DNA of 64,000 nucleotides from a virus (IMGVR_UViG_3300034283_001314); one strand, 5' to 3'. Counted from the first letter of the stretch, positions 10,550-32,900 are shown. The notes: generated from the sequence alone by a model not told the origin. Numbers and translations are program-made.

Positions 10550-12580
10550 ATGGCACTGAATCCTAAAGATAAGTCGTGGATATCTAATAAGAAAGATATA
10601 AAATATTTAAACAGAGATTTTAGTTCTTTGAGACAATCTCTAATTGAGTTTACTAAAACATATTTTGCTAATACAAATAGTGATTTTAGTGATGCATCTC
10701 CTGGTATGATGTTTATAGAACAGGCCGCATATGTGGGTGATGTTTTATCATATTATACCGATGCTCAATTAAAAGAATCATTTATAAATGTAGCATCTGA
10801 TGTTGGAAATGTGTTTAGGCACGCTCAGAATTTTGGATATGTTCCTAAAATAAGTAGACCAGCAACTACTACATTGACAGTATATCAAGTAGTTCCATCG
10901 GTAAACCCATCTAATCCTGAACCTGATAGTAGATATTATCTTAAGATTAAAGAAGGTATGGAAGTGGTTTCATCTACTAATAATAATATAACATTTAGAA
11001 CTACGGATATAGTTGATTTTGCAGATCCTAATGGTAGAACAATTTCGGTTTTAACAAGAACTGGTACTCAAATAAATCAATTTTTGATTACAAAGGAAGT
11101 TCCTGCAATTAGTGCTACGGTGGAAACCTTAAATTTAACAAATTTTAATAATCCATTTAGACCTAATCCAACGTTTACTATTACTGATAATAGATTTATT
11201 AAAATTTTATCAATCAAAGATGTAAACGATCAAACATACTATTACGAAGTTCCATATTTGGCACAAGAAATGATATATGTTAAAGAACAAAACGCATCAA
11301 TTAATAATTCTGTATTATCAGCTAATTCAAATACTACACCTTATATTTTAAAGCAAATCAAAACAAACAAAAGATTTACTACTAGAGTTGTTGGTGAAGA
11401 ATTAGTACAAGTTAGATTTGGGGCAGCAAGTGAGTTTACGGCAGATGAAATGATTATACCTAATACTAAAAATGTAGGGTTGGGATTAAATAATTCAATT
11501 AGTAGATTAGAACAATCCTTTGATCCTTCTAATTTCTTAAAAACATCTACATATGGAATTGCTCCACAAAATGCAGAGTTGGAAATAAAATATTTATCAG
11601 GTGGTGGTATTGAATCAAATGTTAAAACAAATGATTTAAGAAGTATTACTAAAGTAGAATTTTTTGAAGACCTATTAAGTTTTGATAATATTAATTCGGT
11701 ATCATACAACGCAGCAAAAGCATCAATTGCAGTAGATAATTTGATTCCTGCAACGGGTGGTAGAGGATTAGAAACATTAGAAGAAATTAGAGAAAACGCG
11801 ATTGCAAACTACGCATCTCAAAATAGAGCAGTTACTAAACAAGATTATGAAGTAAGAGCATTATCATTAGAACCATCATTCGGTAGTATTGCAAAAGTAT
11901 ATGTTGAACAAGATTCAGCAGCTGATATAAATCCTACTCAAAATGTATTAAGAGATCCTAAGAGTAGAGATGAGTTTTTAAATATGACAAAATCCTTGAT
12001 AGGAAAATCAGATGCTGAATTAGAAACGGCTGTTAATAATTTTTTAGAAAGTAAGCAAACTATAAATTCAGAAAATAATCCATTTGCAATTAATATGTAT
12101 GTTTTATCATATAATTCGGATGGTAAATTGGTGGTAGCAAATAACGCAACTAAACAAAATTTAAAAAGTTATTTAAATGATTTTAGATTGATTACCGATG
12201 CAGTAAATATCATCGATGGTTTTGTTATAAATGTAGGTGTAAATTTTGAAATAACAACATATACCAACTATAACAAACAAGAAGTAGTATTAAATTGTAT
12301 ACAATCTATTACTGATTATTTTAATATAAACAATAGAAAGATAGGACAACCAATTAACTTAAGTGAATTAGAATTAGAAATAGCAAATGTAGATGGGGTA
12401 TCATCCGTTCCTAAAATAGAATTATATAATATTTGTGGTGATGGTACGGATAATAGTTATTCATTGTATTCATATGATATAAAAGAAGCAACTAAAAATA
12501 AAATAGTATATCCATCATTAGACCCTTCTATTTTTGAACTTAAGTTTCCAAATAAAGATATTAAAGGGAGAGCATTATAA
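10550..12580 (+). CDS. Baseplate wedge subunit (T4 gp6 / baseplate J-like)
   Basis: YLNRDFSSLRQSL...DFSDASPGMMFIEQAAYVGDVLSYY; ATGGRGLETLEEIR...QNRAVTKQDY. Confidence 0.85.
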   Translation: MALNPKDKSWISNKKDIKYLNRDFSSLRQSLIEFTKTYFANTNSDFSDASPGMMFIEQAAYVGDVLSYYTDAQLKESFINVASDVGNVFRHAQNFGYVPKISRPATTTLTVYQVVPSVNPSNPEPDSRYYLKIKEGMEVVSSTNNNITFRTTDIVDFADPNGRTISVLTRTGTQINQFLITKEVPAISATVETLNLTNFNNPFRPNPTFTITDNRFIKILSIKDVNDQTYYYEVPYLAQEMIYVKEQNASINNSVLSANSNTTPYILKQIKTNKRFTTRVVGEELVQVRFGAASEFTADEMIIPNTKNVGLGLNNSISRLEQSFDPSNFLKTSTYGIAPQNAELEIKYLSGGGIESNVKTNDLRSITKVEFFEDLLSFDNINSVSYNAAKASIAVDNLIPATGGRGLETLEEIRENAIANYASQNRAVTKQDYEVRALSLEPSFGSIAKVYVEQDSAADINPTQNVLRDPKSRDEFLNMTKSLIGKSDAELETAVNNFLESKQTINSENNPFAINMYVLSYNSDGKLVVANNATKQNLKSYLNDFRLITDAVNIIDGFVINVGVNFEITTYTNYNKQEVVLNCIQSITDYFNINNRKIGQPINLSELELEIANVDGVSSVPKIELYNICGDGTDNSYSLYSYDIKEATKNKIVYPSLDPSIFELKFPNKDIKGRAL

Positions 12581-13671
12581 TGATACTATTTCATACAGCA
12601 TCTAGTGATGCAAGTATTTACTTACAACAACCTTACCAAAATACAGGTATAGATGAGGTTTTAGAAATATCTAAACAATACTATGGTGATACTCCGGATA
12701 TCAGTAGAGTATTAATTAAGTTTAATGCAGCATCAGTTGTATCTAATATTACTAATAATAACTTCACAGCATCATTGCAGTTGAAAATAACGGAGGCTAA
12801 TGAAATAGCAAGTACATTTACAATTGAATTATTTGAGGTGAGTGGTAGTTGGGAAAATGGTACTGGCACTCGTTTTGATAATTTAACTACAAATGGTGCA
12901 AGTTGGTATTATAGAAATGAAAATAACTCAAATTGGTATAAAGAAATGGATGGTATTACCGCATCGTATGGTGTAGGTGTTACTGGTAGTTGGGATGGTT
13001 TAGGTGGTTCATGGTTTACTCAATCAATTGCAACTCAAACTTTTTCTTATACATTAGATGATATTAATTTAGATGTAACAAATGCAGTTAGAAATTGGAG
13101 AAGTGGTTCTACACATAATGGATTTATTATTAAATTAACATCCGCAGCAGAAGATATAACGAATAACTCTGATTATGGTAGTATTAAGATGTTTTCAAAA
13201 GAAACAAATACAATATACCAACCTAAATTAGTATTGGCTTATGCAGATAGTGGAAGTGTTACTGGTAGTTTAGCAGAGGTTAGTGATGTTATAAATTTAG
13301 CTAATTATGAATTTTTATATAGAGTGTATCCATCAAATCTTAAAAAAGAATATACCAAAGGTCAGAAAGTAACTATTAAGGTTGATGCAAGAGAATTATA
13401 TCCGGTTAAACAATTTAATTCAGTATTTGCACATCAAGTAAAATACTACTTACCAACTACTACATATTATTCAATCATAGATACAATAACAAAAGAACCA
13501 ATTATAGATTATTCCGAAAATACAAAAGTAGTAAGGGATAATTATAACAATTTAATAAAACTTAATTTTTCAAATTGGGCAGTTGGTAGAACATATACTT
13601 TATTATTAAAAGTAGTAGGTACGGATAATGAAGAAATTTTTGAAATTGGTACTTTTGATATTTATGAATAA
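12580..13671 (+). CDS. Virion protein with DNRLRE-like beta-sandwich domain
   Basis: DASIY...GIDEVLEISK, SRVLIKF, LDVTNAVRNW, NGFIIK, FSKETNTIYQPKL. Confidence 0.55.
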   Translation: MILFHTASSDASIYLQQPYQNTGIDEVLEISKQYYGDTPDISRVLIKFNAASVVSNITNNNFTASLQLKITEANEIASTFTIELFEVSGSWENGTGTRFDNLTTNGASWYYRNENNSNWYKEMDGITASYGVGVTGSWDGLGGSWFTQSIATQTFSYTLDDINLDVTNAVRNWRSGSTHNGFIIKLTSAAEDITNNSDYGSIKMFSKETNTIYQPKLVLAYADSGSVTGSLAEVSDVINLANYEFLYRVYPSNLKKEYTKGQKVTIKVDARELYPVKQFNSVFAHQVKYYLPTTTYYSIIDTITKEPIIDYSENTKVVRDNYNNLIKLNFSNWAVGRTYTLLLKVVGTDNEEIFEIGTFDIYE

Positions 13672-16174: not shown

Positions 16175-19100
16175 ATGATAGCAGTAGAAGAAATATTAAG
16201 CGATAGTGGTTTAGGTGGCATTGGAACTAGCGCCGGTGGTGGAACTGGCGGTGGAACTGGTACTCCTCCACCTTCATCTGGTGAAAATTTAAAAGTTATA
16301 TTTAGAAACAAATCTAAATTTAAAGATAAATTAACATTTCCATTTGCAGGCCAAACTTATTATGAAAATTCAGTAGTTTCATTAAATTCTAATAATTTAA
16401 ATGATAGTGTAACAATATTGCCAAATATCGAAACTAATTTTAAATTAAAAAATTATATTGTTTTAACAAAGTCAACCACCATTAAAGAAGTAGAAGTATA
16501 TGATGATGTTGTTAATGATAGAGGTTCTGGAACTCCAAAAAATTATATTGAAAAAGTAAGAGTTAGTAGTATTAGAGTTGATGTATATGATTTAAACAAT
16601 GCTCTAATAGGTACACAAGAATATGAATTACCAACTACAATTGAATTAGATTTTGATTTAGAACAAAAGCAAAATGATCCGATTGAACCAAAGGCTAAAA
16701 ATCAAAACATAACATTAATTACAAATTATCTAAATACAAAATTAGATAATGAGTTAAGTGTAAAATTATTATCAGCAGATATACCAAGTGGTGTAATCCT
16801 AAAAAGTGGACAGGGGGTTGATATTTTGGCTGTTCCTGAAACTGATTACGGATTTACCATTGAGGTTCAGGGATTATCTACCTTTAAACTAAAAAATATT
16901 CGTTGGCAGTATGCAAATAAGTTTAACGAAAATAGTTTATTTAATGTAGAGGAATTTAAGATTATTTCAACTGATACTAAGGTAAATATTTCTAAGGATA
17001 TATTTAACGATAATATTATATTATTAATAGAAGTTGAACCAAATGATGTAAATTATCCTAAATTAACTTTAACGGATAAAACTATAAATGTTGGTGTAGA
17101 AGAAACTATTTTAGGATCTAAAACTAGTACTAAATCAATTAGTATACCTGCAGGAATTACAAATACTGATTTTGTAAAGGTTATAACTCCATATACATCA
17201 TTTAATTTACCAATTAATGCAACCACATTAGTTAATAAAGATATAGTATTAGACCTAAAAAAAGATTTTCAAAATAATGTAGGTTCATTTAAAGTAGTTT
17301 TAGTTCCATATAGTGAATTTTTCGGTGATGGACAAGTACAATCTATACAGGTAAACATTTCTCAATTAACGGATATTCCAATAATTGATACAATAGAATA
17401 TCCTACTAGTGTTTTAATTCCAACATATACATTTGGTGATGTTAATTTTACGATATCATTTGAATCAGTAGTTGCAACATCCGTATTAGTATATCATTCA
17501 AAAGAGGATGATAATACACAACTTGGTAAGTTAAAAGGTAAAGATTCAATTTCTTTAAATTATAATACGATTAAGAAATTTAAAGTAGGTGATTCAATTG
17601 ATTTACTTTTAGTACCATATAACAAAACAATAAAGGGAGAACCGGAAAGAATTTCAATTAAATTTGATGATTCTAATTTCTACGTTTCTACTCAAAATTT
17701 AAAAGATGAGTTGTTATTAGCAATATCATCTCAACTTAAAATTGAATTAAATAATAATACTTATTTAAATCATATTGCAACGTTTGATATAGATGACAAG
17801 CAAATTGTAGTATCTAATTGGGATGTTGATAATACTACATTTACTAAGTTTAAAACGGATGAGTTAGGTAACCAAATACCTGATGGTAATATAAATAAAA
17901 GTGTAGTAGTTAAGTTATATGAACCTTTACCGGCAAATATAAACAAAAACGATACACTATGGGTTTCAGAAATTAGTGCATTACCTATTTTACAATCGGT
18001 AATTCTAACAGGTACTCCTACTGATATTTGTGTTCCACTTCGTTCTCCTAATTTTAATGCAGATGTTGATTTTGTAAAGATGCAATCAACTGGAATGGGG
18101 AGTTATGATGATTTAATATTAAGTGGTTCAGCAACATCACAACAATTAGTTGAAAAATATTTAGCAGATAATTTTATTGATATTAAAGGAGTTAATATTG
18201 ATTATTCTGATTTTTCTAATTTCGTAAAATATAGTAGTGCAATTGAAAGATTAGCAAATTTTAGATATAAAAAAGAATTAGTTGAGTTTTATGATAATAG
18301 AATAAATTTATTAACTAGTTTAACTGCTAGTGCAACAAAGGAAATTGAGTTAGATACAACAAAGATTAAAAAATCTAATCTAATAACAGGTTTTGATGGT
18401 TTTGAAAATTATTTAACACAAAGTGTATTTACATCATCATTTGTAACTCAATTTGATGAAAGAGGTAATATTTCAGTTCCTAATACATCTTCTATAAATT
18501 TATATGAAACCTACTACGATTTAGCAGATTCATATGATAAAAACAGTAACAATCTATTAAAAAACAACATACCATTACATATTGTAGAAGATAGTGAGAA
18601 TTTAGATTTCTTATTATTTTTAGATATGATTGGTAATTATTTTGATATTATTTGGGCATATATTAAAGGAATTACGGAACAAAAAAATATATCAGAAGCA
18701 GCGTCAACAGGTATAAGTGATGACCTTTTATATGATTATTTAAAATCATTTGGATGGAATCCTAAAAACTTAAATTCAAATAAACAACTTTGGGATTATA
18801 CATTTGGATTAAATGGTGATGGTGGATTAAATGAAGATCCTATTGAACAATACTTAGGTGGTAATACTGAAAGAATTACACCTGAACAAGCTACTAAGCA
18901 GATTTGGAGACGTATAGCAAATAACTTACCTTATTTATTAAAACATAAAGGAAGTGCTAGAGGTATTACTGCATTATTGACTTGTTATGGTATTCCTGCA
19001 TCTAACTTATCTATTATGGAATTTGGTGGACCGAACATAGACACGGTTGAAGATGCACCTAAATTTGTATATAATAGTTTAACACATAATTTAGTATTTG

Positions 19101-21034
19101 ATAATGTATCGGCTTCGTTAGATATACCATTCTTAGGAACACCTAAACCACAGGCTATTGAATTAAGATTAAAGCCTGAAAACTTTGAGAACTATACATT
19201 AGTAAGTGGTAGTGGATTTAGACTGGGTATTAGTGCAGATACATCTACTGCAACATTAGATAAATACGGATTTTTTACAATCAATGGAACTCAGGTAGGA
19301 ACATCTTATCCGTTTTATGATGGCAATTATCATAGTGTATTATTTCAACAAAGTGGTTCTAATACTGCTAAATTATATGCAGCAACTAACTATAAAGATG
19401 ATATAATACATAGTGGAGAGTGGACAGGTACAATTGTTAGTTCCAATTGGGAATCTGCAACTAAGTTTGAAATAACTAACTTTATCGGTAATATTGAAGA
19501 AGTTAGAGTTTGGAAAACTGCATTAAGTGAAAGTGTGTTTAATACACATGTTATTATGCCAGAAGCAGTAAATGGTAATGATGTTTACGCATCTACTACC
19601 GATTTATTATTAAGATTAGATTTTGAAAGGCCACAAAATGTAAACATTAATACTACAATTAATAACGTAGCACCATCAATAGAATATGTAAATGCGGTTA
19701 GTGCAAGTGGGTTTGTGGTTGATTCAACATATCCATATAATTACGAAACATACGAAAGAGAATTATCTTTAACAATTCCAAATAGTGGTGCAAGTAGGTA
19801 TTATACAAATAAAGTAAGATTTGAGTCGCAAGAATTAGTAGCAAATTTATCACCAACTAAAAGAGCAACTAAAAAGGCATTTGAAACATCGGCAACGGAT
19901 TCAAATAGAGTTGGTTTATTTTTCTCTCCTAATAAAGATTTAGATTTAGATATAGCAAAATCATTGGGTGGACAAAGTTTTGATGATTTCTTAGGTGATC
20001 CAATGTATGAATATGGATATACAAATTATCCTCAATTAGATTCATTAAGAAATTACTATTTTGAAAGAGTAGGTGAAAGAAATATTTATGAGTTTATTCG
20101 TTTAGTTAAATTCTATGATAAATCTTTATTTGTTAATCTTAGAGAAATGTTGCCGGCAAGAGCCGTAGTAACTACTGGTTTACTAATCGCTCCTCATATA
20201 CTAGAAAGAAGTAAACATAAAATAAACAAACCAATTGCAGAATCGGAAACATTAGAAGGAGTTATTACTGAATCACAAATTACTGAGTTGGATGCTACAT
20301 TTGATTCATATGATTCTACATTAATTGTAAATGAAACTGAGCAAATTATTGGAGATGTTTTAAGTATTGAAGTTGAATTAAATCAAGCAGATGAATATAA
20401 TTTAGAAGGTGATGTTAATTCATTTGAATCTACAATTGGGTTTAACGCAGATGAAATTTCAGCTGGTGAGTATTTAACATACGATGGTATTATAGATGCT
20501 AACTTAAAAGAACCAACAATAACATCCGAATTAGATTTACTTCGTTCAGGACAAGTAGTTGGTATAGATAATTTTGAAAACTATGGATATGGGACTTATT
20601 TTTCTAATGGATATGGTAAATACATATATGAAGAAAATGGTAGTTTTAAATCAAAGGGTATAAGAGCATTTATAGTTACAAAAAAACGTAGTATTATTTC
20701 AACTGATTTTGATGAAAGGGGATATGAGTTTACATATGTAACATCATCTTACGATAAAGAATTAATTGTTCAAGATTTGCATCAAAGTGCAAGTGTAATC
20801 GGTGGAGATATTATTTCAGCCGTTACAGCAAGTGGTTATTTACGAACACATTATTCAGTTACAGGTGATAAACATTTAGGTTTACAAAATTCTTTTTACA
20901 AAGGTTCAAAACAAAATAGTTCTACTACGGTTGATGGAAAATCACCGGTTGAAACATTTGTAAGTAATCCTACTACATTAAGAATCTCACCACAAGGTAG
21001 AAGTAATAGTGAACCAATATTAGAAGTTGAATAA
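16175..21034 (+). CDS. Large baseplate/tail protein (1619 aa) with LamG-like domain
   Basis: YLLKHKGSARGITALLTCYG (baseplate wedge-like); FIGNIEEVRVWKTAL (LamG-like); structural context. Confidence 0.6.
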   Translation: MIAVEEILSDSGLGGIGTSAGGGTGGGTGTPPPSSGENLKVIFRNKSKFKDKLTFPFAGQTYYENSVVSLNSNNLNDSVTILPNIETNFKLKNYIVLTKSTTIKEVEVYDDVVNDRGSGTPKNYIEKVRVSSIRVDVYDLNNALIGTQEYELPTTIELDFDLEQKQNDPIEPKAKNQNITLITNYLNTKLDNELSVKLLSADIPSGVILKSGQGVDILAVPETDYGFTIEVQGLSTFKLKNIRWQYANKFNENSLFNVEEFKIISTDTKVNISKDIFNDNIILLIEVEPNDVNYPKLTLTDKTINVGVEETILGSKTSTKSISIPAGITNTDFVKVITPYTSFNLPINATTLVNKDIVLDLKKDFQNNVGSFKVVLVPYSEFFGDGQVQSIQVNISQLTDIPIIDTIEYPTSVLIPTYTFGDVNFTISFESVVATSVLVYHSKEDDNTQLGKLKGKDSISLNYNTIKKFKVGDSIDLLLVPYNKTIKGEPERISIKFDDSNFYVSTQNLKDELLLAISSQLKIELNNNTYLNHIATFDIDDKQIVVSNWDVDNTTFTKFKTDELGNQIPDGNINKSVVVKLYEPLPANINKNDTLWVSEISALPILQSVILTGTPTDICVPLRSPNFNADVDFVKMQSTGMGSYDDLILSGSATSQQLVEKYLADNFIDIKGVNIDYSDFSNFVKYSSAIERLANFRYKKELVEFYDNRINLLTSLTASATKEIELDTTKIKKSNLITGFDGFENYLTQSVFTSSFVTQFDERGNISVPNTSSINLYETYYDLADSYDKNSNNLLKNNIPLHIVEDSENLDFLLFLDMIGNYFDIIWAYIKGITEQKNISEAASTGISDDLLYDYLKSFGWNPKNLNSNKQLWDYTFGLNGDGGLNEDPIEQYLGGNTERITPEQATKQIWRRIANNLPYLLKHKGSARGITALLTCYGIPASNLSIMEFGGPNIDTVEDAPKFVYNSLTHNLVFDNVSASLDIPFLGTPKPQAIELRLKPENFENYTLVSGSGFRLGISADTSTATLDKYGFFTINGTQVGTSYPFYDGNYHSVLFQQSGSNTAKLYAATNYKDDIIHSGEWTGTIVSSNWESATKFEITNFIGNIEEVRVWKTALSESVFNTHVIMPEAVNGNDVYASTTDLLLRLDFERPQNVNINTTINNVAPSIEYVNAVSASGFVVDSTYPYNYETYERELSLTIPNSGASRYYTNKVRFESQELVANLSPTKRATKKAFETSATDSNRVGLFFSPNKDLDLDIAKSLGGQSFDDFLGDPMYEYGYTNYPQLDSLRNYYFERVGERNIYEFIRLVKFYDKSLFVNLREMLPARAVVTTGLLIAPHILERSKHKINKPIAESETLEGVITESQITELDATFDSYDSTLIVNETEQIIGDVLSIEVELNQADEYNLEGDVNSFESTIGFNADEISAGEYLTYDGIIDANLKEPTITSELDLLRSGQVVGIDNFENYGYGTYFSNGYGKYIYEENGSFKSKGIRAFIVTKKRSIISTDFDERGYEFTYVTSSYDKELIVQDLHQSASVIGGDIISAVTASGYLRTHYSVTGDKHLGLQNSFYKGSKQNSSTTVDGKSPVETFVSNPTTLRISPQGRSNSEPILEVE

Positions 21035-21730: not shown

Positions 21731-22954
21731 ATGGCAACATTAGGTTCAAACACAGGAACACAGCTTACTAACGACTTAGCAAATTATCTTAATTTACAAA
21801 GACAAAATGCTAATGGAGTTTTAGATACAACACAAATAGCATCTATTATTAACAACTACCTTACAACGGGTGAAAAGTTAGTAATGGAAACTGGTGTTAC
21901 TACAAATTCTGTGTATAAAACATTTAACACAACTGATATTGTACCGGCTAAAAACGAAATCGTAACAACTGGTTTATGGAGTAATGGTAGTGGTAGTATT
22001 GGTGGAACAGGTGTAGAGTTAGTAACTGGCTCAGATGCATCAGCAGCTGGTCAGAGTGGTTCTGCAACTGATGAGTATTACTACAATGTATACATCACAG
22101 GTTCTACCATTTCTGAATTTGCAGTAGCTTACGGTCATATTAGTGGTGCAGGTGCACAAACTTTAGATTTAGATGATAATGGAACATTGCCTACAAAAGC
22201 AACATACTTCCAATATAGATCACTATTAACAGATACAGATGAACCAAAATTCCGTTTTTATAGTGGTGATACACCTGATGGATATTCATCTGATGACTTT
22301 TATGCAATCAATGTTAGTAGAGCAAATTATAGAGAAAGAATTGATCCAGGTAACTGGGAGTTAGTATTGAGTGGTTCATTGGGTTCTATTAGATTAATAG
22401 ATAATAGTGGTGAAAAATTCAATTTAACTAATGCTGGTACTAATGAATATAATATCGTAAGTGGTACATTGAATTTAGGTACAAATGATCCAGCTATTAT
22501 TTCAACATACACATCATCTAATGGACAAGGTTTTGGTAAATTCTATCCTGATTATGGTATCTTTATACTAAACCCTTCAGCATTAAGTGCTAGTATTGGT
22601 AGTGAATTATCAGGTTCTACTACTACAACTTCTTATGAGTTTAAACATCAAAACATATTTAACGCAATTAAGGCAGGTAAAGATTTCCAAGCTCGTAGAA
22701 TTGAAAATGTATCAACAGCACACTACTTTGTAAGAGTTAACAATAGAGAGTTTAACTTCTCAAATAATCCTACTTATGTAGATGCAACTGGTTCAATCAC
22801 AGAACCTACATTCCAAGCAGACCCTATGACATTTATTACTACGGTTGGTTTGTACAATGATGCAAATGAGATGGTAGCAGTAGCTAAAACGTCTAGACCT
22901 ATTGCTAAATCATTTAGTAAAGAATTATTATTAAAAGTTAAATTAGATTTCTAA
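21731..22954 (+). CDS. Tail/baseplate protein, paralog 1
   Basis: C-terminal ITTVGLYNDANEMVAVAKTSRPIAK; rich in SGS/TGS. Confidence 0.55.
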   Translation: MATLGSNTGTQLTNDLANYLNLQRQNANGVLDTTQIASIINNYLTTGEKLVMETGVTTNSVYKTFNTTDIVPAKNEIVTTGLWSNGSGSIGGTGVELVTGSDASAAGQSGSATDEYYYNVYITGSTISEFAVAYGHISGAGAQTLDLDDNGTLPTKATYFQYRSLLTDTDEPKFRFYSGDTPDGYSSDDFYAINVSRANYRERIDPGNWELVLSGSLGSIRLIDNSGEKFNLTNAGTNEYNIVSGTLNLGTNDPAIISTYTSSNGQGFGKFYPDYGIFILNPSALSASIGSELSGSTTTTSYEFKHQNIFNAIKAGKDFQARRIENVSTAHYFVRVNNREFNFSNNPTYVDATGSITEPTFQADPMTFITTVGLYNDANEMVAVAKTSRPIAKSFSKELLLKVKLDF

Positions 22955-23015: not shown

Positions 23016-23024
23016 ATATTTATA
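23016..23024 (+). promoter_or_regulatory. Putative late promoter ATATTTATA
   Basis: Immediately after the terminator, 7 nt before ATG 23032. Confidence 0.65.
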
Positions 23025-23031
23025 TTAAGAT

Positions 23032-24159
23032 ATGTTAAAACAAATCCCAAAATCAGATATTAATTTAAGACCTTTTAAGGTATATAAAACATTCCCACTT
23101 AGTCCGGATGCATTGGTATCTAGTGTAGCTATTAATCATAATAGTAGTAGTTCAAATCTTACTGATATTGAATTATCTGAGAATGGATTATATCATCAAT
23201 TAAAAACGATGTATTATAATGGAGATAACGCATTAAATCCATTTTTATCTTATGGTGATTTTAAACCAATATACACTACAAATGATAACTCAAAACAAAG
23301 ATTATTAAATGATAGGACATTAGTAGTAAAAATACCACAGGTAAAATATGGGGAAGGTATAAAGAAAAAATCATTAGAATTATTTTTAGAAAGTACGAAT
23401 GAAACAATTGCAGATGATGGATTTGGTAATTTAAAATCAAATGGAAATTCTTATGAATTATTAGAATTTAATGTAGAAGAGGAAAAAATTATATTTTTAG
23501 ATGTAAACGGAACTTCTTTTACATTAAATTTATGGGCTATTGAATCCGAATATAGTATTGATATGAATACTGGGGTTTTTTATTTTGAGAATGAAGGAAA
23601 TTTACCGTTTACCAATTTGATAGTTGATGTTGAAAATAGAATACTTACATTTAATGGATTAATTACATCATTAGATAATTTAATTATACCAAATGTAGGA
23701 AATGTTTTTTATTCACACGGTATAATAACATTAACTAAAGAAACAGAAATAGGTGGGTTAAGAGAAAATGCATTTAGTGGGAGTAATTTTGATGGTTTTT
23801 ATAAATCTACAATTACTATTTATGAAAATGAATTTTTATTAGTAGTAGGGGAAGATGAATTTAATGCTTCTACAAACCCGTCATCTTATACAGAAACCAA
23901 TATAGAAACGGGTTCAATAAATACTACATTTGAAGGTGTGAGAAAGTGGAGAAATAGTGATAAATACCAAAAATCGGAGTTTGGTGTATACGAATATAGT
24001 TCATCGATAGATCCAACTGGTTCTTATTTAGCACCGTATATTACCACTATTGGTTTATATGATAATAATATGGATATGGTGGCAGTTGCTAAACTTGCAA
24101 CACCTGTAAAATCAATGCCAGACCTTCCTGTAAATTTTTTAGTACGAATTGATACTTAA
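23032..24159 (+). CDS. Tail/baseplate protein, paralog 2
   Basis: C-terminal YITTIGLYDNNMDMVAVAKLATPVK matches the C-terminus of 21731-22954. Confidence 0.55.
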   Translation: MLKQIPKSDINLRPFKVYKTFPLSPDALVSSVAINHNSSSSNLTDIELSENGLYHQLKTMYYNGDNALNPFLSYGDFKPIYTTNDNSKQRLLNDRTLVVKIPQVKYGEGIKKKSLELFLESTNETIADDGFGNLKSNGNSYELLEFNVEEEKIIFLDVNGTSFTLNLWAIESEYSIDMNTGVFYFENEGNLPFTNLIVDVENRILTFNGLITSLDNLIIPNVGNVFYSHGIITLTKETEIGGLRENAFSGSNFDGFYKSTITIYENEFLLVVGEDEFNASTNPSSYTETNIETGSINTTFEGVRKWRNSDKYQKSEFGVYEYSSSIDPTGSYLAPYITTIGLYDNNMDMVAVAKLATPVKSMPDLPVNFLVRIDT

Positions 24160-24162
24160 CAT

Positions 24163-24171
24163 ATATTTATA
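24163..24171 (+). promoter_or_regulatory. Putative late promoter ATATTTATA
   Basis: Intergenic, 20 nt before ATG 24192. Confidence 0.6.
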
Positions 24172-24191
24172 TTAAATAAAAGGATTTTAAT

Positions 24192-24617: not shown

Positions 24618-25024
24618 TGGCAAGAAAAAAAGTTACAAAAACAGGTTGGGTAGCAAAGAAGAATGGTTATAAAAGTGGATTAGAAGATACGGTTTCCCAA
24701 CAAATCGAATCAATGGGTATTAAGGTAGAATACGAAACTGAAAAGGTTAATTATATTATACCTTCATCACCTCACACATATAGTCCTGATTTTAAATTAC
24801 CTAATAATATTAGAGTAGAAACAAAAGGTAGATTTGTATTAGCTGATAGAAAGAAACATTTATTAGTTAAAGAACAGAATCCTACATTAGATATTCGTTT
24901 CGTATTTACCAATTCAAAGAACAAAATCAATAAGAAATCCAAAACTACTTACGCCGATTGGTGTGATAAACATGGATTTAAGTATGCCGATAAGGTGATA
25001 CCAGACGAATGGTTCTCCGAATAA
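24617..25024 (+). CDS. Holliday-junction resolvase, T7 endonuclease I (gp3) family
   Basis: GYKSGLED, YSPDFKLPNNIRVETKG (PD-(D/E)xK), ADRKKHLLVKEQNP.LDIRFVF, TYADWCDKHGF. Confidence 0.92.
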   Translation: MARKKVTKTGWVAKKNGYKSGLEDTVSQQIESMGIKVEYETEKVNYIIPSSPHTYSPDFKLPNNIRVETKGRFVLADRKKHLLVKEQNPTLDIRFVFTNSKNKINKKSKTTYADWCDKHGFKYADKVIPDEWFSE

Positions 25025-25056
25025 TTTGGTAATTTCAACTATTTTCCGTATATTTG
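25025..25056 (+). promoter_or_regulatory. Bacteroidota-type housekeeping sigma promoter
   Basis: TTTG at 25025-25028, 20 nt spacer, TATATTTG at 25049-25056; upstream of primase. Confidence 0.7.
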
Positions 25057-25060
25057 ATAT

Positions 25061-26068: not shown

Positions 26069-26089
26069 AATTTATCAAATAAAATATAA

Positions 26090-29000: not shown

Positions 29001-29236
29001 GAGTAGCACTTATTAATGTATGTAACTTACCTCGTCCAAACTTCTTAGTAATTGATGAAGGATTTGGTACATTAGATAGTGATAACTTACAATCTATCTT
29101 TATGATGTTTGATTATTTGAAAACACAATTTGATTTCATTAATATTATTTCTCACTTGGATGCAATGAGAGATGTGGTAGATACATTAGTTGAAATTAAA
29201 AAGGTTGATGGCTTCTCACAAATACAATATAAATAA
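26090..29236 (+). CDS. Fused Mre11/SbcD nuclease - Rad50/SbcC ATPase (T4 gp47-gp46-like)
   Basis: HIADIH, AGD, GNHD, FHG, LGDIHK phosphoesterase motifs; Walker A APNASGKSS; CKFC hook; CSGMEK signature; Walker B VIDEGFGTLD; IISH. Confidence 0.93.
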   Translation: MNKLKRIYHIADIHIRNLKRHTEYREVFNRLFNDIKVRGTEDSLIYLAGDLAHAKLEMSPELLNEINYFLKKCCELCPTILIAGNHDCNLNNQGRLDVLSPIVEALNLPNLTYLRDTQSYTYGGVRFDLFSIFDDKENWKFEPITSDTKNIALFHGPILDATTDVGFHISSRHFTTEMFDGYDLALLGDIHKRQEMISPKGCRVVYPGSLIQQNHGEALVKHGYAIWDMDNLSVEYVDVPNDYGYYTLHVENGEVPDVTDMPLKPRLRVLVSKTDASDMKRVTTEIKKKYKVDEFTITRTDTLSRLRTGNRDGKLNVGNVNDAQYQAGLIKDYLGRNYMLDDETLGKIEDLNNKLNKRLNDDDLVKNIAWKPIKFEFDNMFSYGENNIVNFENMKGLMGVFAPNASGKSSLFDALSFCIFDKSSRAFKAANILNNRKTSFSCKLEFDINDERFFIERTAKTTKKGDAVKCDVNFWKIEGGDIVNLNGDERRGTDKVIESYLGKYEDFVLTALSLQGNNSLFIDKSQSERKDLLAQFMGINVFDKLYDLASEDIKEVQVLLRNFKRTDFTSELATAENKLETLKDEYEEFEIEKEGYEDRQDDLNEEITNLSAQLVPIDGNLDITQLESKQSTLQSQITGSDATIQTKSVSIGKIVDVMAELTIAIDSKKQFNGLDIEVVYSNYQQQQKDLIDATKVYDIAKLHLSSAEETIQHLDNHEYDPNCKFCCDNTFVKDAMRVKELLPQLKEALKQATINATGIQQTLDSWEGIEEQYSQFEDYKAKLEKGKALHKTTYLELSGLITQKELYEAQLTAVELDIEKYHANETTIQNNDSLEEQIDIKKLELVGVNKDLREIAAKLLDMNGQIVQTQSYITSVTDKMREAKDLEEKFQIYEYYLDAVKRDGVSYELIAKALPVIEGEVNNILQQIVEFGIVFDMSGKNVNARIVYEDQSWPLEMCSGMEKFVSGLAIRVALINVCNLPRPNFLVIDEGFGTLDSDNLQSIFMMFDYLKTQFDFINIISHLDAMRDVVDTLVEIKKVDGFSQIQYK

Positions 29237-29247
29237 TATTTATTAGT

Positions 29248-29889
29248 ATGAATGCAGAAATAAATAATCAATTATTAACTGATGGATATTATACAACTAA
29301 ATTAAATACTGAAGTAGCTGAAAAAGTAAAAGAAATTTTTAGCAAAATAAAAGATATAGAATTTAGAGATGCTATCCATACTAATTGTGGTGAATTAGGA
29401 TATACAAATAATACCGATTTTGAAAAATTAGAAGAACTTAAAAAAGAATACGCACCATTAAAAAAATGGCAATTTTGGTATGTAGAAAATAATTTAAATA
29501 AATACCTTTCAACATATGAAATTGAATATATTAAAGAAAATGTTTTTAGGGATTTGATTAAACAATGTTATGATGATAGTTTATACAACTCAGAAATGTT
29601 CAATTTATCATACACAATGTATAATAAAGAATGCTATATTAATCCACATAGTGATGGATTAAGTACTTACAAAGTATGTAATATATTACTATATTTAAAT
29701 GAAGATTATGAGGATGGATTTGGTGGAGAATTAATTGTAAATGATAATGTGATAATAAAGCCAGAATTTGGTACAATTGCAGTATTGGATTTTACAAAAG
29801 TAAATCCTAAACATGAAGTAACCGAAGTAGTTCATGATACATTTAAGAGATTTGCAATATTAGCCTCATTTATTTTTAATAATAAATAA
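29248..29889 (+). CDS. 2OG-Fe(II) oxygenase, prolyl-4-hydroxylase-like
   Basis: INPHSDG (HxD), ILLYLNEDY..GFGGEL, KHEVTEV, KRFAI. Variant ATATTTATT at 29236-29244 upstream. Confidence 0.85.
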   Translation: MNAEINNQLLTDGYYTTKLNTEVAEKVKEIFSKIKDIEFRDAIHTNCGELGYTNNTDFEKLEELKKEYAPLKKWQFWYVENNLNKYLSTYEIEYIKENVFRDLIKQCYDDSLYNSEMFNLSYTMYNKECYINPHSDGLSTYKVCNILLYLNEDYEDGFGGELIVNDNVIIKPEFGTIAVLDFTKVNPKHEVTEVVHDTFKRFAILASFIFNNK

Positions 29890-29894
29890 AAAGA

Positions 29895-29903
29895 ATATTT
29901 ATA
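29895..29903 (+). promoter_or_regulatory. Putative late promoter ATATTTATA
   Basis: Intergenic, 16 nt before ATG 29920. Confidence 0.6.
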
Positions 29904-29919
29904 AAAAACAATATTCTAA

Positions 29920-32900
29920 ATGTCAGTTGATATAAAAGTTGCACAGGATGATAAATTACAATTAGTACAAACATACTTTACAGATAATTCACCATCATCC
30001 GATTTTTTTAACATTACAGAATTACCAGATACCTTATCAGGTGGTAAAAACGCATTCCTAATAGCAGGAAGTGACAAACTATTTCCTCAATCTGAAGTTA
30101 AAGTACAAGTAAGAGATGCAGCAGGAAATGTTTGTTATGTAGAATATGCGGATGGTAAACCTGAATATTATGAAGGTATTTCAAAAGTAGTAGCGGTTTA
30201 TGTATATCCAAATGAAACCGCATTTGGACCTGCAACTATTACAATTTTAGGACAAGCAATTGATGTACCTGATGAATGGAAATTTAGGTTTAATGTTAAA
30301 TGGCAAACAACAATTAATATTAATCCATCCTTACCAAATACAACAAGAGTAAGATTTTATAAAAGACCAAAAGTAGATATTGTAGAAACATTACAACCTA
30401 TTTATAGAATAGAGAATGGTTCAAAGGTAGCATCTAGTATTACCGCTTCATTTGCAAATATTAAAATATCACAATTAGAAACATTTGCGGGTGATGTAAA
30501 AAGAGTAAAAGTATTTCGAACATCAGAAGGTGATATATCCGATTTTGATTTAATACAAGATATATTAATTGAATCAAAAGAATTATTAACTACATTTGAT
30601 ATTAGTAGTAGTGTAAAAGGAAACGCGGGTATTTTTACAAATGAAACCATAAAACTTTGGAATACAGGTTCACTAACAGCATCACTTACAAATGATAGAT
30701 TAGATAATGGTTTAAGATTAAAAGGTAGTGGTATTTTCAGATATAATTCACCACTAAACTTTGTAACTAAGAGTACATATGAATTTAATTTAGATGCATT
30801 TTATTCATCATCTACTAATAGTAATTTGGGTGTGTATATTAGTGGTTCAAATAATGGTATTCAATTGGTAGGAACATTAGAAGGAACAATACCTGTTAAA
30901 AATTTAGAAGATAGTTATTTTACATTTGATGTAGATAAGAATGAACCAACGGCAAGTTTATACCTATCACAATCTCAAAATGAATGGCACATTGCAAATG
31001 TAAGTTTAAAATTATCTGAAGATAGTGCATTTTCACCAAACCAAATAAATTTTATAAGTACAATGCCAACGGTGATTGGTAATGAAACTTATAATTTTAA
31101 ATTTGAGTTTTATGATGTAAATAATAATTTCGTTCCCGTAGCAGTAACTCAAAGTGCATTATTTACGGGTGGTAATAATAATGTAGGAGGAACATTAATT
31201 TTAATTAGTGGTTCTATTTCAGCATCTGAAGCAGGATTATTAGCATTATCACAAAGTGTTAGTGGAACAATTGGTGTAGTAACTGGGAGTGTTAATACGG
31301 TTAGTGCTAGCGTATCATCTGTAAGTGCTTCTTTAAGTTCATCTATTAGTTCAAGTAAAGGAGCAGCAATATCATCATCGTTTGGTAATATACAAACATT
31401 AGCAAACGGTAATTTTAGTGGTTCATTTATAAGTGATACTACTATATTTGCACCGGTAATTGGTGGTAATAATGGTTATATCAGTTCGTTATTTAAAGTA
31501 GGTACAGCACCTTCAATTTATTTAGATGCAAGACAAAATCCAAGAAAAATATTCATAGGTGGTGTAACTGATTCTGGTTCATATAATAATTCCAATACAT
31601 CAGTTTATATGGATAGTAGTGGTAAATTTTCATTAAAAGATAAATTATTATGGGACGGTGATAATTTAACTATAAACGGAACTATTAATGTATTAGGTGG
31701 TTCGGCCGCAACTGATGCAAATGCTTTATTATATGCAAGTAGAGCAGTAACGTCGGGTTCAGTTTCAGCAGCCGCAGCACAAACTGCCGCAGAACTATTT
31801 GCAACAAGTGCAGCTGGACGAGCCGTTACATCTGGTTCAGCTGCAGCATCAGCTGCACAAACGGCTGCTATTGCACAGGCCAAATCAGATGCAAGTGCTT
31901 CTATAAATTTATTAGCAAATGGTGACTGGACTGCAGGAAATGGTACATTTATTACATCACGTTCGATTTCGTCTCCTGTTTTAGCTGGTAATGCGGGGTA
32001 TATAAGTGAAATTCTTAAAGTAGGACAAAATGGAATCACTTTGGATGGTGGTAGCAAAAAAATATTTGTTGGAACGGGTACATATAATAATGCAAACACA
32101 CCATTCTATTTTGCATCAGGTTCTTCAAATGTATTTTCATTAGGAGACAAACTAAGATTTGATGGAGCAAATCTAACTATTTCAGGTACTGTTAACGCAT
32201 CTGCCGGCTCGTTTACCGGTACGATAAGTGGTGCAACAATAACCGGTGGTACTATTAATATTGGGCCAAATAAATTTCAAGTAGATAGTAGTGGTAATGT
32301 TAGTATATCCGGTAATACTACCATAGGTGGAACTTTAAATTACTCTGGTCAAAATAATATCATAGGATATCACTATATAAATGGTGGTACATGTACATCA
32401 CCATCATTTTTTTTAGAACCTGGTGCGGATTTTAGATTTATTGACCAAAAAAATAGTAGTTTACTTGGTGCTATAAGAGGATATACTATTGTAACAAATT
32501 GTGGAGTACCTGGATTAGAAACAACAAGTAGGACAATCGTAAGTATAGCAGAAAATGGGTTTTCGTGGGGTAAAATAAATGGAGATACATGGGCAACATT
32601 AGATGGAACGGAATTGCGTGTTCTTGGTGATGTAGTTGCAAATACGTCCGATAAAAGATTAAAAACAAACATAATTAACATAGATTCACCTTTGGAAAAA
32701 TTATCTAAAATAAATGGTGTATACTTTAATTGGAACGAAACAGCTAAAGAACTAAATCAAAAAAATACAAATAAAAGAGAAGTTGGATTTATTGCACAAG
32801 AAGTTCAAGAGGTTATGCCTGAAATCGTTTCACTTGCACCATTTGATACAATAAATCATACCAACCAAAGTAAATCGGGTGAAAATTATCTAACAATTCA

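What the first reader, a model, noticed from the sequence alone, without database searches (positions are those of the whole stretch)
12580..32200. [S/T]-[G/A]-S tripeptide enriched in tail proteins: candidate glycosylation sequon
Manual counts are 8 in 363 aa (12580), 8 in 407 aa (21731), 16 in the first ~760 aa of the fibre (29920) and 8 in the C-terminal part of 16175. Controls give 1 in Mre11-Rad50 (1048 aa), 0 in terminase (529 aa) and 0 in carbamoyltransferase. A rough composition estimate for 21731 gives only 1-2. Ser-Gly is the proteoglycan attachment signal, and GT7 includes the enzyme that extends that linker; two GT7s are encoded here.
Basis: partly seen in the sequence, partly recalled or inferred. 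Interest (0 to 1): 0.75.

Follow-up and report, generated by a model that had tools for sequence, protein, structure and literature searches.

The report
Ser/Thr-Gly/Ala-Ser tag on phage tail proteins
Five outer tail proteins of this large uncultured aquatic phage carry the ordered tripeptide Ser/Thr-Gly/Ala-Ser about four times more often than chance; the excess is real and travels with phage sugar-transferase genes, so it may be a sugar-attachment site, but no chemistry shows this, and the proposed link to the two GT7 enzymes is weak.

Summary
Five tail proteins hold 43 [ST][GA]S against 9.3 expected from whole-protein shuffles and 12.5 from 15-residue local shuffles (p<=0.001). The window's non-tail proteins hold 7 against 10.4. 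SGS is the most over-represented of all tripeptides (18 vs 2.8). The signal is at protein level and directional: Ser is preferred at position 3, Asn is avoided, and both flanks are hydrophobic.

About 230 homologues keep the excess (6.1 vs 0.7; 8.4 vs 1.4), as do Flavobacterium phage immuto and Microcystis phage Mel-JY01. T4, P-SSM2, phiKSUM, FLC1-1B and RM378 lack it.

The GT7/proteoglycan link is weak. There are no acidic flanks. immuto, Mel-JY01 and contig G027 have the motif but no GT7.

What travels with the motif is a conserved soluble GT4-GT4-GT2 gene set. It is present in immuto, Mel-JY01, GT7-bearing jumbo relatives and G027. It is absent from the window itself and from five motif-poor phages.

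Best reading (about 0.45): an acceptor tag for phage-made O-glycans, with the window's cassette as a lineage-specific elaborator. A structural motif remains a live rival.

This scan has already noted the same motif in at least 45 other genomes.

The parts
12580..13671 (+). Peripheral baseplate protein just after the Baseplate_J-like gene. The N-terminal domain resembles a CBM96-type carbohydrate-binding module. It carries 8 motif sites (residues 6, 63, 88, 127, 135, 175, 224, 228).
   Evidence: 8 observed vs 0.72 expected, p 0.0005. 110 homologues average 6.1 vs 0.72, and sites 228, 135, 175 and 6 are kept in 70-92% of them. AF2 model pLDDT 79: four sites lie inside loops, two begin at the end of a strand, one directly follows a helix and one opens a strand. 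Foldseek hit 8wab, TM 0.74 on the target. Weak Pfam CBM96 match.
16175..21034 (+). Large tail/baseplate protein of 1619 aa with a weak LamG-like stretch. It has 8 motif sites, all in residues 650-1553 (nt about 18122-20834).
   Evidence: 8 vs 2.53, p 0.003. The C-terminal part alone gives 8 vs 1.89. Homologues in immuto (8 vs 2.3) and Mel-JY01 (13 vs 2.2).
21731..22954 (+). Tail protein of 407 aa with 8 motif sites (residues 87, 99, 109, 123, 214, 286, 294, 353).
   Evidence: 8 vs 1.33, p 0.0005. 119 homologues average 8.35 vs 1.43, with the motif seen in 29 alignment columns. AF2 model pLDDT 73: 7 of 8 sites are in or at the edge of loops, 1 is in a helix. No PDB sequence relative.
23032..24159 (+). 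Paralogue of 21731 that shares its C-terminal domain, with 3 motif sites.
   Evidence: 3 vs 0.52, p 0.012. Alignment A2.
29920..32982 (+). Tail fibre with a C-terminal Peptidase_S74 intramolecular chaperone. It has 16 motif sites in residues 175-735 and none in the last 285 aa.
   Evidence: 16 vs 4.23, p 0.0005. Pfam S74 E 1.5e-17. PHROG tail-fibre families. 17 homologous fibres next to GT7 cassettes total 313 vs 105.
38059..38907 (+). Probable third glycosyltransferase (GT2-like, GT-A), directly upstream of the two GT7 genes.
   Evidence: Pfam Glyco_tranf_2_4 E 0.0024, below cut-off. Protein-atlas neighbours are named GT2 / Glyco_transf_92. A homologue was called in the loci of the GT7-LamG relatives (29 homologous ORFs in 29 loci).
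39138..42004 (+). Two tandem GT7 (beta-1,4-GalT-like) enzymes, each fused to a LamG/ConA-like lectin domain (39138-40559 and 40556-42004).
   Evidence: Pfam Glyco_transf_7N (81 and 73 bits), Glyco_transf_7C (63 and 69 bits) and Laminin_G_3 (45 and 43 bits), all above cut-off. 29 related loci in IMG/VR.
37301..38056 (+). Methyltransferase (Methyltransf_24) of the conserved cassette.
   Evidence: Pfam E 3.7e-10. 25 homologous ORFs in the 29 GT7 loci.
42004..46583 (+). Two radical-SAM paralogues (42004-43395 and 45057-46583) that travel with the GT7 pair. An unassigned ORF (43395-44087) and an SDR epimerase/dehydratase (44087-45055) lie between them.
   Evidence: Pfam. 26 and 37 homologous ORFs in the 29 GT7 loci.
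46573..55703 (+). Nucleotide-sugar tailoring genes: an RmlC-like 3,5-epimerase, two more SDR enzymes, a TPP-dependent E1 alpha-like and a transketolase-like beta, and several unassigned ORFs. These are the likely makers of the donor sugar.
   Evidence: Pfam. They are less conserved among GT7 loci, with 1-6 homologous ORFs each.

Best explanation
The tripeptide is the core of a longer ordered tag, hydrophobic-[S/T]-[G/A]-S-hydrophobic. It lies mostly in surface-type loops or where a beta-strand or helix gives way to a loop, on outer tail proteins. These are peripheral baseplate proteins and the fibre here, and also the sheath in relatives. Most likely it is the acceptor or recognition site for a phage-encoded, cytoplasmic O-glycosylation of virion proteins before assembly.

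The probable initiating enzymes are not the GT7s. They are a conserved soluble GT4-GT4-GT2 gene set that relatives carry elsewhere in their genomes and that lies outside this window. The window's cassette would then build and extend a lineage-specific glycan on the primed serines. That cassette holds a methyltransferase, a GT2-like enzyme, two GT7-lectin fusions, two radical-SAM enzymes and nucleotide-sugar tailoring genes.

Shown: the enrichment, its order and context, its conservation with site turnover, its confinement to tail proteins, and its co-occurrence with the GT set.
Inferred: that a sugar is attached, which residue takes it, which enzyme starts, and what the glycan is.
For: 1. The motif is real, ordered and at protein level: 43 vs 9.3-12.5, and SGS is the top tripeptide. 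Position 3 strongly prefers Ser ([ST][GA]S 43 vs [ST][GA]T 17, with S:T near 1:1 in these proteins). [ST][GA]N is depleted (2 vs 7.9), which simple turn propensity does not predict. Positions -1 and +3 are hydrophobic in 26 of 43 sites each, against a 34% background.

2. It arises in unrelated folds of one virion: a CBM-like sandwich, the 21731 fold and the fibre. In immuto and G027 it also occurs in the sheath. It is not enriched in enzymes (7 vs 10.4 in the window; 29 vs 40.5 in immuto).

3. Families keep the number of sites while sites turn over. Homologues of 12580 average 6.1 vs 0.72. About 3.2 of these are at four near-fixed sites, leaving about 2.9 at variable columns, still roughly four times expectation. 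For 21731 the motif appears in 29 columns.

4. It is not generic to tails. None of 29 T4 virion and assembly proteins is enriched. Fibres of P-SSM2, phiKSUM and FLC1-1B are not enriched, HTVC008M shows only about 1.7-fold, and the RM378 homologue shows 1 vs 0.73.

5. It co-occurs with GTs. The adjacent GT4 pair of immuto (genes 89 and 90) matches the Mel-JY01 pair at 39-54% and 43% identity. It also matches a pair in GT7-bearing contigs G001, G002, G005, G006 and G009, including both near-complete ones. GT4a is found in 4 of 5 >=90%-complete genomes of the 21731 clade.

6. G027 (188 kb, 97% complete) has no detectable match to this window's terminase, baseplate genes or GT7. It still carries GT4a, GT4b and GT2 in the same order, and its fibres, sheath and a tail protein are enriched (23 vs 4.5; 181 vs 59; 67 vs 24; 40 vs 6; 8 vs 1.9), while its remaining ORFs give 33 vs 38.7.

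7. The set is absent from T4, HTVC008M, phiKSUM, P-SSM2 and FLC1-1B.

8. The same GT set serves phages of two host phyla (Flavobacterium and Microcystis). That argues for a phage-own target rather than a host polysaccharide. immuto already modifies its DNA with deazaguanine (DpdA, QueCDEF).

9. On the AF2 models 14 of 16 sites have at least one residue in a loop and none lies mid-strand. [quoted passage not shown]
Against: No chemistry: nothing here shows a sugar on any of these proteins.

The conserved GT4-GT4-GT2 set is not in this window, and the window's own genome could not be searched. Its presence in this phage is inferred from relatives.

The association rests on few independent lineages: one broad clade plus G027. 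Fibre modules and GT genes could travel together.

G014 (176 kb, estimated 92% complete) is motif-rich, yet the pair was not found in it. That contig is linear, and in complete relatives the pair lies about 125-145 kb from the tail module, which would fall beyond the contig's end.

RM378 has a GT4a-like gene (31% identity) but no enrichment in the 33 kb examined.

Several sites are near-invariant over 44-95% identity, and loop or turn positions are what a purely structural motif would also show. In immuto's fibre the motif is the unit of periodic repeats (VSGSFSGSF..., TASYAxTASYWSGSF).

An earlier follow-up in this scan (e1-5913433) reported the motif in relatives lacking that phage's candidate enzyme.
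Confidence: 0.45

Rival explanations
1. A structural or assembly motif. [S/T]-[G/A]-S is a clade-specific way of ending beta-strands and making tight turns, or the repeat unit of serine-lined fibre shafts. It is inherited by descent and spread by fibre-module exchange. Its company with GT genes then reflects shared ancestry or co-transfer, not a substrate relationship.
For: Most sites sit in loops or at strand and helix ends. Several are near-fixed across families: TGS228 in 92% and SGS175 in 80% of 12580 homologues; SGS109 in 92% and SGS214 in 91% of 21731 homologues. In immuto's 1053-aa fibre, 53 motifs form periodic repeats. All motif-rich phages but G027 belong to one broad clade, and G027's fibre shares 33% identity with the window's fibre.
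Against: The motif arises in unrelated folds of the same virion. It is missing from the equivalent proteins of T4 and from the RM378 homologue that shares the 21731 C-terminal domain. The classic turn formers Asn and Asp are not used ([ST][GA]N 2 vs 7.9). Gly and Ala interchange at position 2. Variable sites are still about four times too frequent. No reason is known why one clade should need this particular turn.
Confidence: 0.3
2. One reading: a proteoglycan-like linker. A sugar such as xylose is placed on the Ser of Ser-Gly, and the two GT7 enzymes extend it as B4GALT7 does in animals.
For: Two bona fide GT7 domains, each with a lectin domain, lie about 6 kb downstream of the motif-rich fibre. 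They are kept next to motif-rich fibres in related loci. Three SDR sugar-nucleotide enzymes are present.
Against: There are no acidic flanks (9.5% vs 11.5%). The conserved core is G-S with Ser after Gly. No xylosyltransferase family was matched among the window's ORFs scanned against Pfam. immuto, Mel-JY01 and G027 have the motif but no GT7; PF02709 matches there fall below cut-off on GT2-type genes, and tblastn finds nothing in G027. The motif therefore predates the GT7 cassette and is wider than it.
Confidence: 0.07
3. A tag for a different post-translational change or partner, for example modification by the radical-SAM or 2OG-Fe(II) enzymes encoded nearby, phosphorylation, or docking of a decoration or chaperone protein.
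For: Two radical-SAM enzymes travel with the GT7 pair. Two P4H-like oxygenases lie just downstream of the fibre gene, flanking the poly-Pro gene. Notes on the same genome describe a large protein-tailoring repertoire.
Against: These enzymes are not shared with immuto or Mel-JY01, which have the motif. The only enzyme genes found to travel with the motif across lineages are glycosyltransferases.
Confidence: 0.1
4. No function: composition, low complexity, a DNA-level signal or chance.
For: Tail proteins are richer in S, T, G and A than enzymes.
Against: Whole-protein and local shuffles, the all-tripeptide scan, codon diversity, frame-specificity and conservation over about 230 homologues all argue against it. 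The S/T/G/A-rich neighbours 21090, 33475 and 7561 have no motif at all.
Confidence: 0.03

Closest known systems
Virion glycosylation of mycobacteriophages by phage-encoded glycosyltransferases (Freeman et al. 2023, Cell Host Microbe; known here only through PMC12619734)
   Same: A phage encodes its own soluble glycosyltransferases, and the proposed targets are its own virion proteins, modified in the host cytoplasm.
   Different: In mycobacteriophages the glycans sit on C-termini of the capsid and tail-tube subunits. Here the candidate sites are short internal tags in loops of baseplate, fibre and, in relatives, sheath proteins. The GT families and host phyla differ, and nothing has been shown chemically.
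Bacterial autotransporter heptosyltransferases Aah/TibC acting on AIDA-I/TibA (PMC3835316)
   Same: Cytoplasmic O-glycosylation of beta-rich adhesins at many Ser/Thr. [quoted passage not shown] The predicted placement here is similar: most sites lie in loops or at their edges.
   Different: Aah has no sequence consensus, whereas here there is a clear tripeptide. No BAHT-type enzyme was sought or found. The candidate enzymes are GT4, GT2 and GT7.
Serine-rich-repeat adhesin glycosylation by the GtfA/GtfB pair of Gram-positive cocci (from general knowledge, not tested)
   Same: Two adjacent GT-B (GT4-type) proteins of about 440-500 aa act with S-[A/V/E]-S-type serine repeats on a fibrillar adhesin, in the cytoplasm, and further GTs extend the first sugar.
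   Different: No sequence relationship to GtfA/B was seen. The best PDB match of the phage GT4a is chlorovirus NY-2A B736L (3oy2, E 4e-6). Most sites here are isolated tags in globular domains, not long repeats.
Core glycosyltransferase genes of large aquatic Bacteroidota phages ('moraphages', PMC12619734) and the GT operon of Flavobacterium phage immuto (genes 89-101)
   Same: Four putative GT orthologous groups belong to the moraphage core genome. The same conserved GT4, GT4, GT2 and GT-A genes link immuto and Mel-JY01, and the first three also occur in the jumbo relatives.
   Different: The paper assigns no target and mentions no motif. This window holds a different, lineage-specific cassette (GT2-like plus two GT7-LamG). 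I did not show that this phage is a moraphage.
Animal proteoglycan linker (Ser-Gly xylosylation, extended by the GT7 enzyme B4GALT7)
   Same: Ser next to Gly, and GT7-family enzymes encoded nearby.
   Different: No acidic context, no xylosyltransferase match, the conserved Ser follows rather than precedes Gly, and the motif occurs in phages without GT7.

Membership tests
CAZy/Pfam GT7 (beta-1,4-galactosyltransferase-like), for ORFs 39138 and 40556 | Matches to Glyco_transf_7N and Glyco_transf_7C above Pfam gathering scores | tested here: met
   7N scores 80.8 and 72.9 bits (cut-off 27). 7C scores 62.6 and 68.8 bits (cut-off 23). Each protein also has Laminin_G_3.
Proteoglycan-type Ser-Gly xylosylation sequon | Acidic residues flanking Ser-Gly | tested here: not met
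   D/E is 9.5% in the +-5 flanks against an 11.5% background. The flanks are hydrophobic instead.
Proteoglycan-type Ser-Gly xylosylation sequon | An initiating protein xylosyltransferase encoded alongside the GT7 enzyme | tested here: not met
   No such family among the Pfam matches of the window ORFs that were scanned. Several ORFs remain unassigned, and the 800-12580 region was scanned mainly against PHROGs, so absence is not proven.
Proteoglycan-type Ser-Gly xylosylation sequon | The motif should travel with GT7 | tested here: not met
   immuto, Mel-JY01 and G027 are motif-rich without GT7.
Phage virion glycosylation (mycobacteriophage type) | Phage-encoded soluble glycosyltransferases | tested here: met
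   Two GT7 and one GT2-like in the window. GT4-GT4-GT2 set in relatives.
Phage virion glycosylation (mycobacteriophage type) | Glycans at the C-termini of capsid and tail-tube subunits | tested here: not met
   The sites are internal, on baseplate and fibre proteins. Capsid and tube genes are not in the window, and immuto's capsid is not significantly enriched (3 vs 1.3).
Phage virion glycosylation (mycobacteriophage type) | Glycan detected on virion proteins | not testable with these tools
   Needs mass spectrometry or glycoprotein staining of virions.
BAHT-type (Aah/TibC) structural-motif O-glycosylation | Acceptor at the start of a loop in a strand-loop-strand | tested here: inconclusive
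   On two AF2 models, 14 of 16 sites have a residue in a loop. Five begin at or just after the end of a strand and none is mid-strand. These are predictions only, and Gly favours loops in any case.
BAHT-type (Aah/TibC) structural-motif O-glycosylation | A BAHT-family heptosyltransferase | not tested
   No dedicated search was run. No such family appeared among the Pfam matches.
Bacteroidota general O-glycosylation | Sequon D-[S/T]-[A/I/L/V/M/T] enriched on targets | tested here: not met
   16 observed vs 15.2 expected in the five tail proteins.
Conserved GT4-GT4-GT2 set of immuto-like and large aquatic phages | Adjacent GT4a (about 460-480 aa), GT4b (about 420-436 aa) and a nearby GT2, present in the phage that carries the motif | tested here: inconclusive
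   Present in immuto, Mel-JY01, G001, G002, G005, G006, G009 and G027. GT4a is also found in G010, G011, G015, G016 and G018. It is absent from this 64-kb window, and the rest of this genome could not be searched.

The most novel reading that the evidence does not exclude
A widespread sequon-directed O-glycosylation system of phage virions. A conserved soluble GT4 pair, with a GT2, primes serines in a hydrophobic-[S/T]-[G/A]-S-hydrophobic strand-to-loop tag on every outward-facing tail protein. Swappable lineage-specific cassettes then build a strain-specific glycan coat, much as O-antigen loci do for bacteria. Here that cassette is two GT7-lectin fusions, a GT2-like enzyme, a methyltransferase, two radical-SAM enzymes and branched-sugar synthesis genes. 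This would be the first sequence-defined glycosylation tag known for any phage, and it could be tested in two cultured phages.
Probability: 0.4. Interest if true: 0.85.

Novelty: new variant of a known kind. Interest (0 to 1): 0.6.

Why it matters
Phage particles have been shown to be glycosylated only in mycobacteriophages, and no sequence rule for the sites is known. If this tag is a true acceptor, glycosites could be read directly from the genomes of thousands of abundant aquatic phages; the two protein families alone gave 1,610 and 4,227 database hits. A glycan coat on fibres and baseplates would bear on host recognition, particle stability, and escape from grazers or defence lectins. It would also assign a target to the glycosyltransferase genes reported as core genes of large Bacteroidota phages. 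Two cultured phages that share the motif and the enzymes, immuto on Flavobacterium and Mel-JY01 on Microcystis, make the question directly testable. If the tag proves structural instead, it is still a clade marker that explains nothing yet about why T4-type proteins do without it.

Tried and rejected
- Composition and local low complexity as the cause: rejected by whole-protein, 30-aa and 15-aa shuffles.
- Post-hoc motif choice: rejected, because SGS tops an unbiased tripeptide scan.
- A DNA-level signal such as AGTGGT: rejected. It is frame-0 only, and the same codon-pair bias occurs in non-tail genes.
- A generic property of tail fibres: rejected by T4, P-SSM2, phiKSUM and FLC1-1B. HTVC008M shows a weak 1.7-fold excess.
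- The host Bacteroidota sequon: not enriched.
- A GT shared between the window's cassette and the immuto or Mel-JY01 GT clusters: none found beyond generic SDR enzymes.
- 'Loss of the GT pair means loss of the motif' within the 21731 clade: inconclusive. The only candidate, G014, is a linear contig that probably ends before the expected position of the pair.
- Motif avoidance in the enzymes of the cassette (the two GT7 families together 2 vs 13.6): not used as evidence. T4 and immuto show a general 0.6-0.7 under-representation, and the homologues are not independent.
- PDB sequence searches for 21731 and 16175 found nothing. PHROGs has no family for the baseplate-region proteins.
- Literature searches found no report of this motif or of glycosylated fibres in such phages.
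- Locating the window's own genome failed.
- Solvent exposure could not be computed, because the models come back as secondary structure only.

Full report
**What the window is**

All large ORFs lie on the + strand and GC is about 29%. The terminase is 55% identical to those of Flavobacterium phage vB_FspM_immuto and Microcystis phage Mel-JY01, and more distantly related to Rhodothermus phage RM378 and T4-like cyanophages. Earlier notes of this scan place the window in a much larger, jumbo-type phage genome.

The gene order runs as follows:
- carbamoyltransferase (5390);
- a baseplate block: a Baseplate_J-like gene at 10550, then 12580, 13674, 14925, 16175, 21090, 21731 and 23032;
- an SbcCD-like pair;
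- a fibre with an S74 chaperone (29920);
- two P4H-like 2OG oxygenases;
- a sugar cassette: methyltransferase, GT2-like 38059, two GT7-LamG fusions, two radical-SAM enzymes, three SDR enzymes, an RmlC-like epimerase and TPP E1-like alpha and beta;
- terminase.

immuto and Mel-JY01 keep the same baseplate gene order.

**The observation**

Against 2000 whole-protein shuffles, 12580 (8 vs 0.72), 21731 (8 vs 1.33) and the fibre (16 vs 4.23) reach the floor p of 0.0005. 16175 gives 8 vs 2.53 (p 0.003), and the paralogue 23032 gives 3 vs 0.52 (p 0.012).

Pooled, the five proteins hold 43 sites against 9.3 expected. Shuffling only within 30- or 15-residue blocks, which keeps local S/G/A-rich patches, raises the expectation only to 11.8 and 12.5. 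The window's 50 non-tail proteins hold 7 against 10.4. The four remaining tail-block proteins (10550, 13674, 14925, 21090) hold 1 against 2.9. S/T/G/A-rich neighbours such as 21090, 33475 and 7561 have none.

**What the motif really is**

- An unbiased scan of all tripeptides puts SGS first (18 vs 2.83, z=9).
- The motif is directional and selective. Ser is favoured over Thr at position 3 (43 vs 17, with S and T nearly equal in these proteins).
- [ST][GA]N is depleted (2 vs 7.9), and [ST][ST]S, [ST]NS and [ST]DS are not enriched.
- Positions -1 and +3 are hydrophobic in 26 of 43 sites each, against a 34% background. The five-residue form hydrophobic-[ST][GA]S-hydrophobic occurs 15 times against about 1.1 expected.
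- Acidic residues are not enriched around it.
- At the DNA level the 43 sites use 29 different 9-mers, and the third Ser uses both codon boxes. The AGT-GGT preference is a general codon-pair habit of the genome, and the hexamer occurs only in frame. Selection therefore acts on the protein.

**Conservation**

The database holds 1,610 and 4,227 relatives of 12580 and 21731.
- Among 110 near-full-length homologues of 12580 (44-95% identity) the mean is 6.1 sites against 0.72 expected.
- Among 119 homologues of 21731 it is 8.35 against 1.43.
- Some sites are nearly fixed: 12580 has TGS228 in 92%, TGS135 in 81%, SGS175 in 80% and TAS6 in 70%; 21731 has SGS109 in 92% and SGS214 in 91%.
- Others come and go, and the motif is seen in 29 alignment columns of the 21731 family. 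After the four fixed sites of 12580 are removed, about 2.9 sites per protein remain at variable columns, still about four times expectation.
- Within conserved sites the G and the following S are the most invariant residues.
- The immuto and Mel-JY01 homologues, at only 29-37% identity, keep the excess.

**Where it sits**

AF2 models of 12580 (pLDDT 79) and 21731 (pLDDT 73) place 14 of 16 sites with at least one residue in a loop. Five begin at the last residue of a strand or the first of the following loop, and two directly follow a helix. One opens a strand, one lies in a helix and none is mid-strand.

The N-terminal domain of 12580 resembles a chondroitin-sulfate-binding CBM96 module. Only secondary structure was available, so true solvent exposure was not computed.

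**Controls in other phages**

- None of 29 T4 virion and assembly proteins is enriched. gp34 gives 2 vs 2.7, gp37 6 vs 3.4, gp7 0 vs 1.0 and the sheath 1 vs 1.4. The five-residue form is absent from all of them.
- Fibres carrying the same S74 chaperone in Prochlorococcus phage P-SSM2, Fusobacterium phage phiKSUM and Ralstonia phage FLC1-1B are not enriched, apart from one P-SSM2 neighbour at 2-fold. Pelagibacter phage HTVC008M shows a weak 1.7-fold excess.
- The RM378 homologue of 21731 has 1 vs 0.73.
- In immuto, scanned genome-wide, the excess is confined to the tail module, a structural-block protein (13 vs 1.8), the sheath (8 vs 2.5) and a few small ORFs. All other ORFs give 29 vs 40.5.

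The motif is thus neither a general tail-fibre property nor a property of the 21731 C-terminal fold.

**Which enzymes travel with it**

These are genuine GT7-LamG fusions. They form a conserved cassette with a methyltransferase, a GT2-like protein (38059) and two radical-SAM enzymes in 29 IMG/VR loci, usually just downstream of a fibre. The fibres in those loci total 313 sites against 105 expected.

However, immuto and Mel-JY01 have no GT7; only sub-threshold matches on GT2-type genes appear. Nothing in the window's cassette is shared with their GT clusters.

I tested that lead here.
- The adjacent GT4 genes 89 and 90 of immuto match Mel-JY01's genes at 39-54% and 43% identity, and two further GTs are also shared.
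- The same pair, 44-47% identical to immuto's and followed by a GT2, lies about 40 kb or more from the GT7 cassette in G001, G002, G005, G006 and G009. These include both near-complete genomes among the nine GT7-bearing contigs searched. The four contigs without it are about half-complete.
- GT4a is found in four of five >=90%-complete genomes of the 21731 clade.
- The exception, G014, is motif-rich. It is a linear 176-kb contig, and in complete relatives the pair lies 125-145 kb beyond the tail module, past where this contig ends. It therefore decides nothing.

**An independent lineage**

Contig G027 (188 kb, 97% complete, GC 34%) has no tblastn match (E<0.1) to this window's terminase, Baseplate_J-like gene, 12580, 16175, 21731, SbcCD genes, 38059 or GT7. 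It does carry GT4a (59%), GT4b (48%) and GT2 (47%) in the same order.

Its tail fibres (23 vs 4.5; 6 vs 0.7; 181 vs 59; 67 vs 24), its sheath (8 vs 1.9) and a tail protein (40 vs 6.0) are enriched, while the other 150 ORFs give 33 vs 38.7. T4, HTVC008M, phiKSUM, P-SSM2 and FLC1-1B lack the pair. RM378 has only a 31%-identical GT4a-like gene.

The best PDB match of GT4a is the chlorovirus NY-2A glycosyltransferase B736L. A 2025 paper lists four putative GT groups among the core genes of large aquatic Bacteroidota phages, with no known target (PMC12619734).

**Interpretation**

The pattern fits a recognition tag better than a fold requirement:
- an ordered tag with hydrophobic flanks, lying in loops and at strand ends;
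- arising in unrelated folds of one virion;
- keeping its number while positions shift;
- confined to outward tail parts;
- co-occurring with the same soluble GTs in phages of two host phyla and in one unrelated phage lineage.

The closest mechanistic precedents are cytoplasmic adhesin glycosylation systems. [quoted passage not shown] From general knowledge, GtfA/GtfB are a pair of GT-B proteins acting on S-[A/V/E]-S repeats.

I therefore favour, at about 0.45, phage-encoded O-glycosylation primed by the GT4-GT4-GT2 set. The window's GT2-like and GT7-LamG cassette and its unusual sugar pathway would act as lineage-specific extenders.

The proteoglycan/GT7 version is disfavoured (about 0.07). 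A structural or assembly motif whose link with GTs comes from shared descent or co-transfer remains a serious rival (about 0.3), because many sites are fixed, loops are where turn motifs live, and the independent lineages are few.

**Limits**

- No sugar is shown.
- The GT4 pair is not in this window, and the rest of this genome could not be reached. Scan notes mention other GT-B genes elsewhere in the same genome, but I could not check them.
- The association test has few independent points.
- The same motif has already been reported by this scan in at least 45 other genomes. This window adds a new cassette type (GT7-LamG) and a further replicate. It is not the first sighting.

Noticed in passing
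window 33475-34167, with 32984-33466 and 34178-34753: A 230-aa protein with a run of 15 consecutive prolines and a Cys-rich C-terminal half sits between two P4H-like 2OG-Fe(II) oxygenases (Pfam 2OG-FeII_Oxy_3). Hydroxyproline would be an alternative glycan acceptor. This S/T/G-rich protein has no [ST][GA]S at all.
   Followed up: no
window 38059-38907: An unannotated 282-aa protein is probably a third, GT2-like glycosyltransferase. A homologue was called in the loci that hold relatives of the GT7-LamG pair (29 homologous ORFs in 29 loci).
   Followed up: partly
window 21090-21713 and homologues in L055-L134: A 207-aa tail protein that is 17% Thr and rich in G and A lies between motif-rich genes. 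It has 0 sites here and in nearly all relatives (about 2 sites in 10 loci against about 5.7 expected). This is a built-in negative control, perhaps a buried component.
   Followed up: partly
L001:26299-29460 (immuto record 97614-100775): A 1053-aa 'tail spike' holds 53 motif sites in periodic repeats (VSGSFSGSFQGDGSELTGL; TASYAxTASYWSGSF). It also has a block of about ten YSHAEG-type repeats.
   Followed up: no
G014 (IMGVR_UViG_3300027782_003601) 106276-109065: The terminase large subunit matches in two pieces separated by about 1.2 kb (residues 3-254 and 247-529). This suggests an intron, an intein or an inserted homing-endonuclease gene.
   Followed up: no
L011:15773-16924 (Rhodothermus phage RM378): A UDP-galactopyranose mutase gene lies about 2 kb downstream of the tail-protein homologue. 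Sugar genes therefore sit beside tail genes even in this distant, motif-poor relative.
   Followed up: no
L016-L044, homologues of window 39138, 40556, 42004: The GT7-LamG and radical-SAM enzymes are strongly depleted in the motif (0 vs 7.1, 2 vs 6.5, 1 vs 6.7). That is more than the general 0.6-0.7 under-representation seen in T4 and immuto enzymes. It could be avoidance of self-modification, but the sequences are not independent.
   Followed up: partly
L009 (immuto record 18607-36971): immuto carries a full 7-deazaguanine DNA-modification set (QueC, QueD, QueE, QueF, FolE, DpdA). This makes DNA a less likely target for its GT operon.
   Followed up: no
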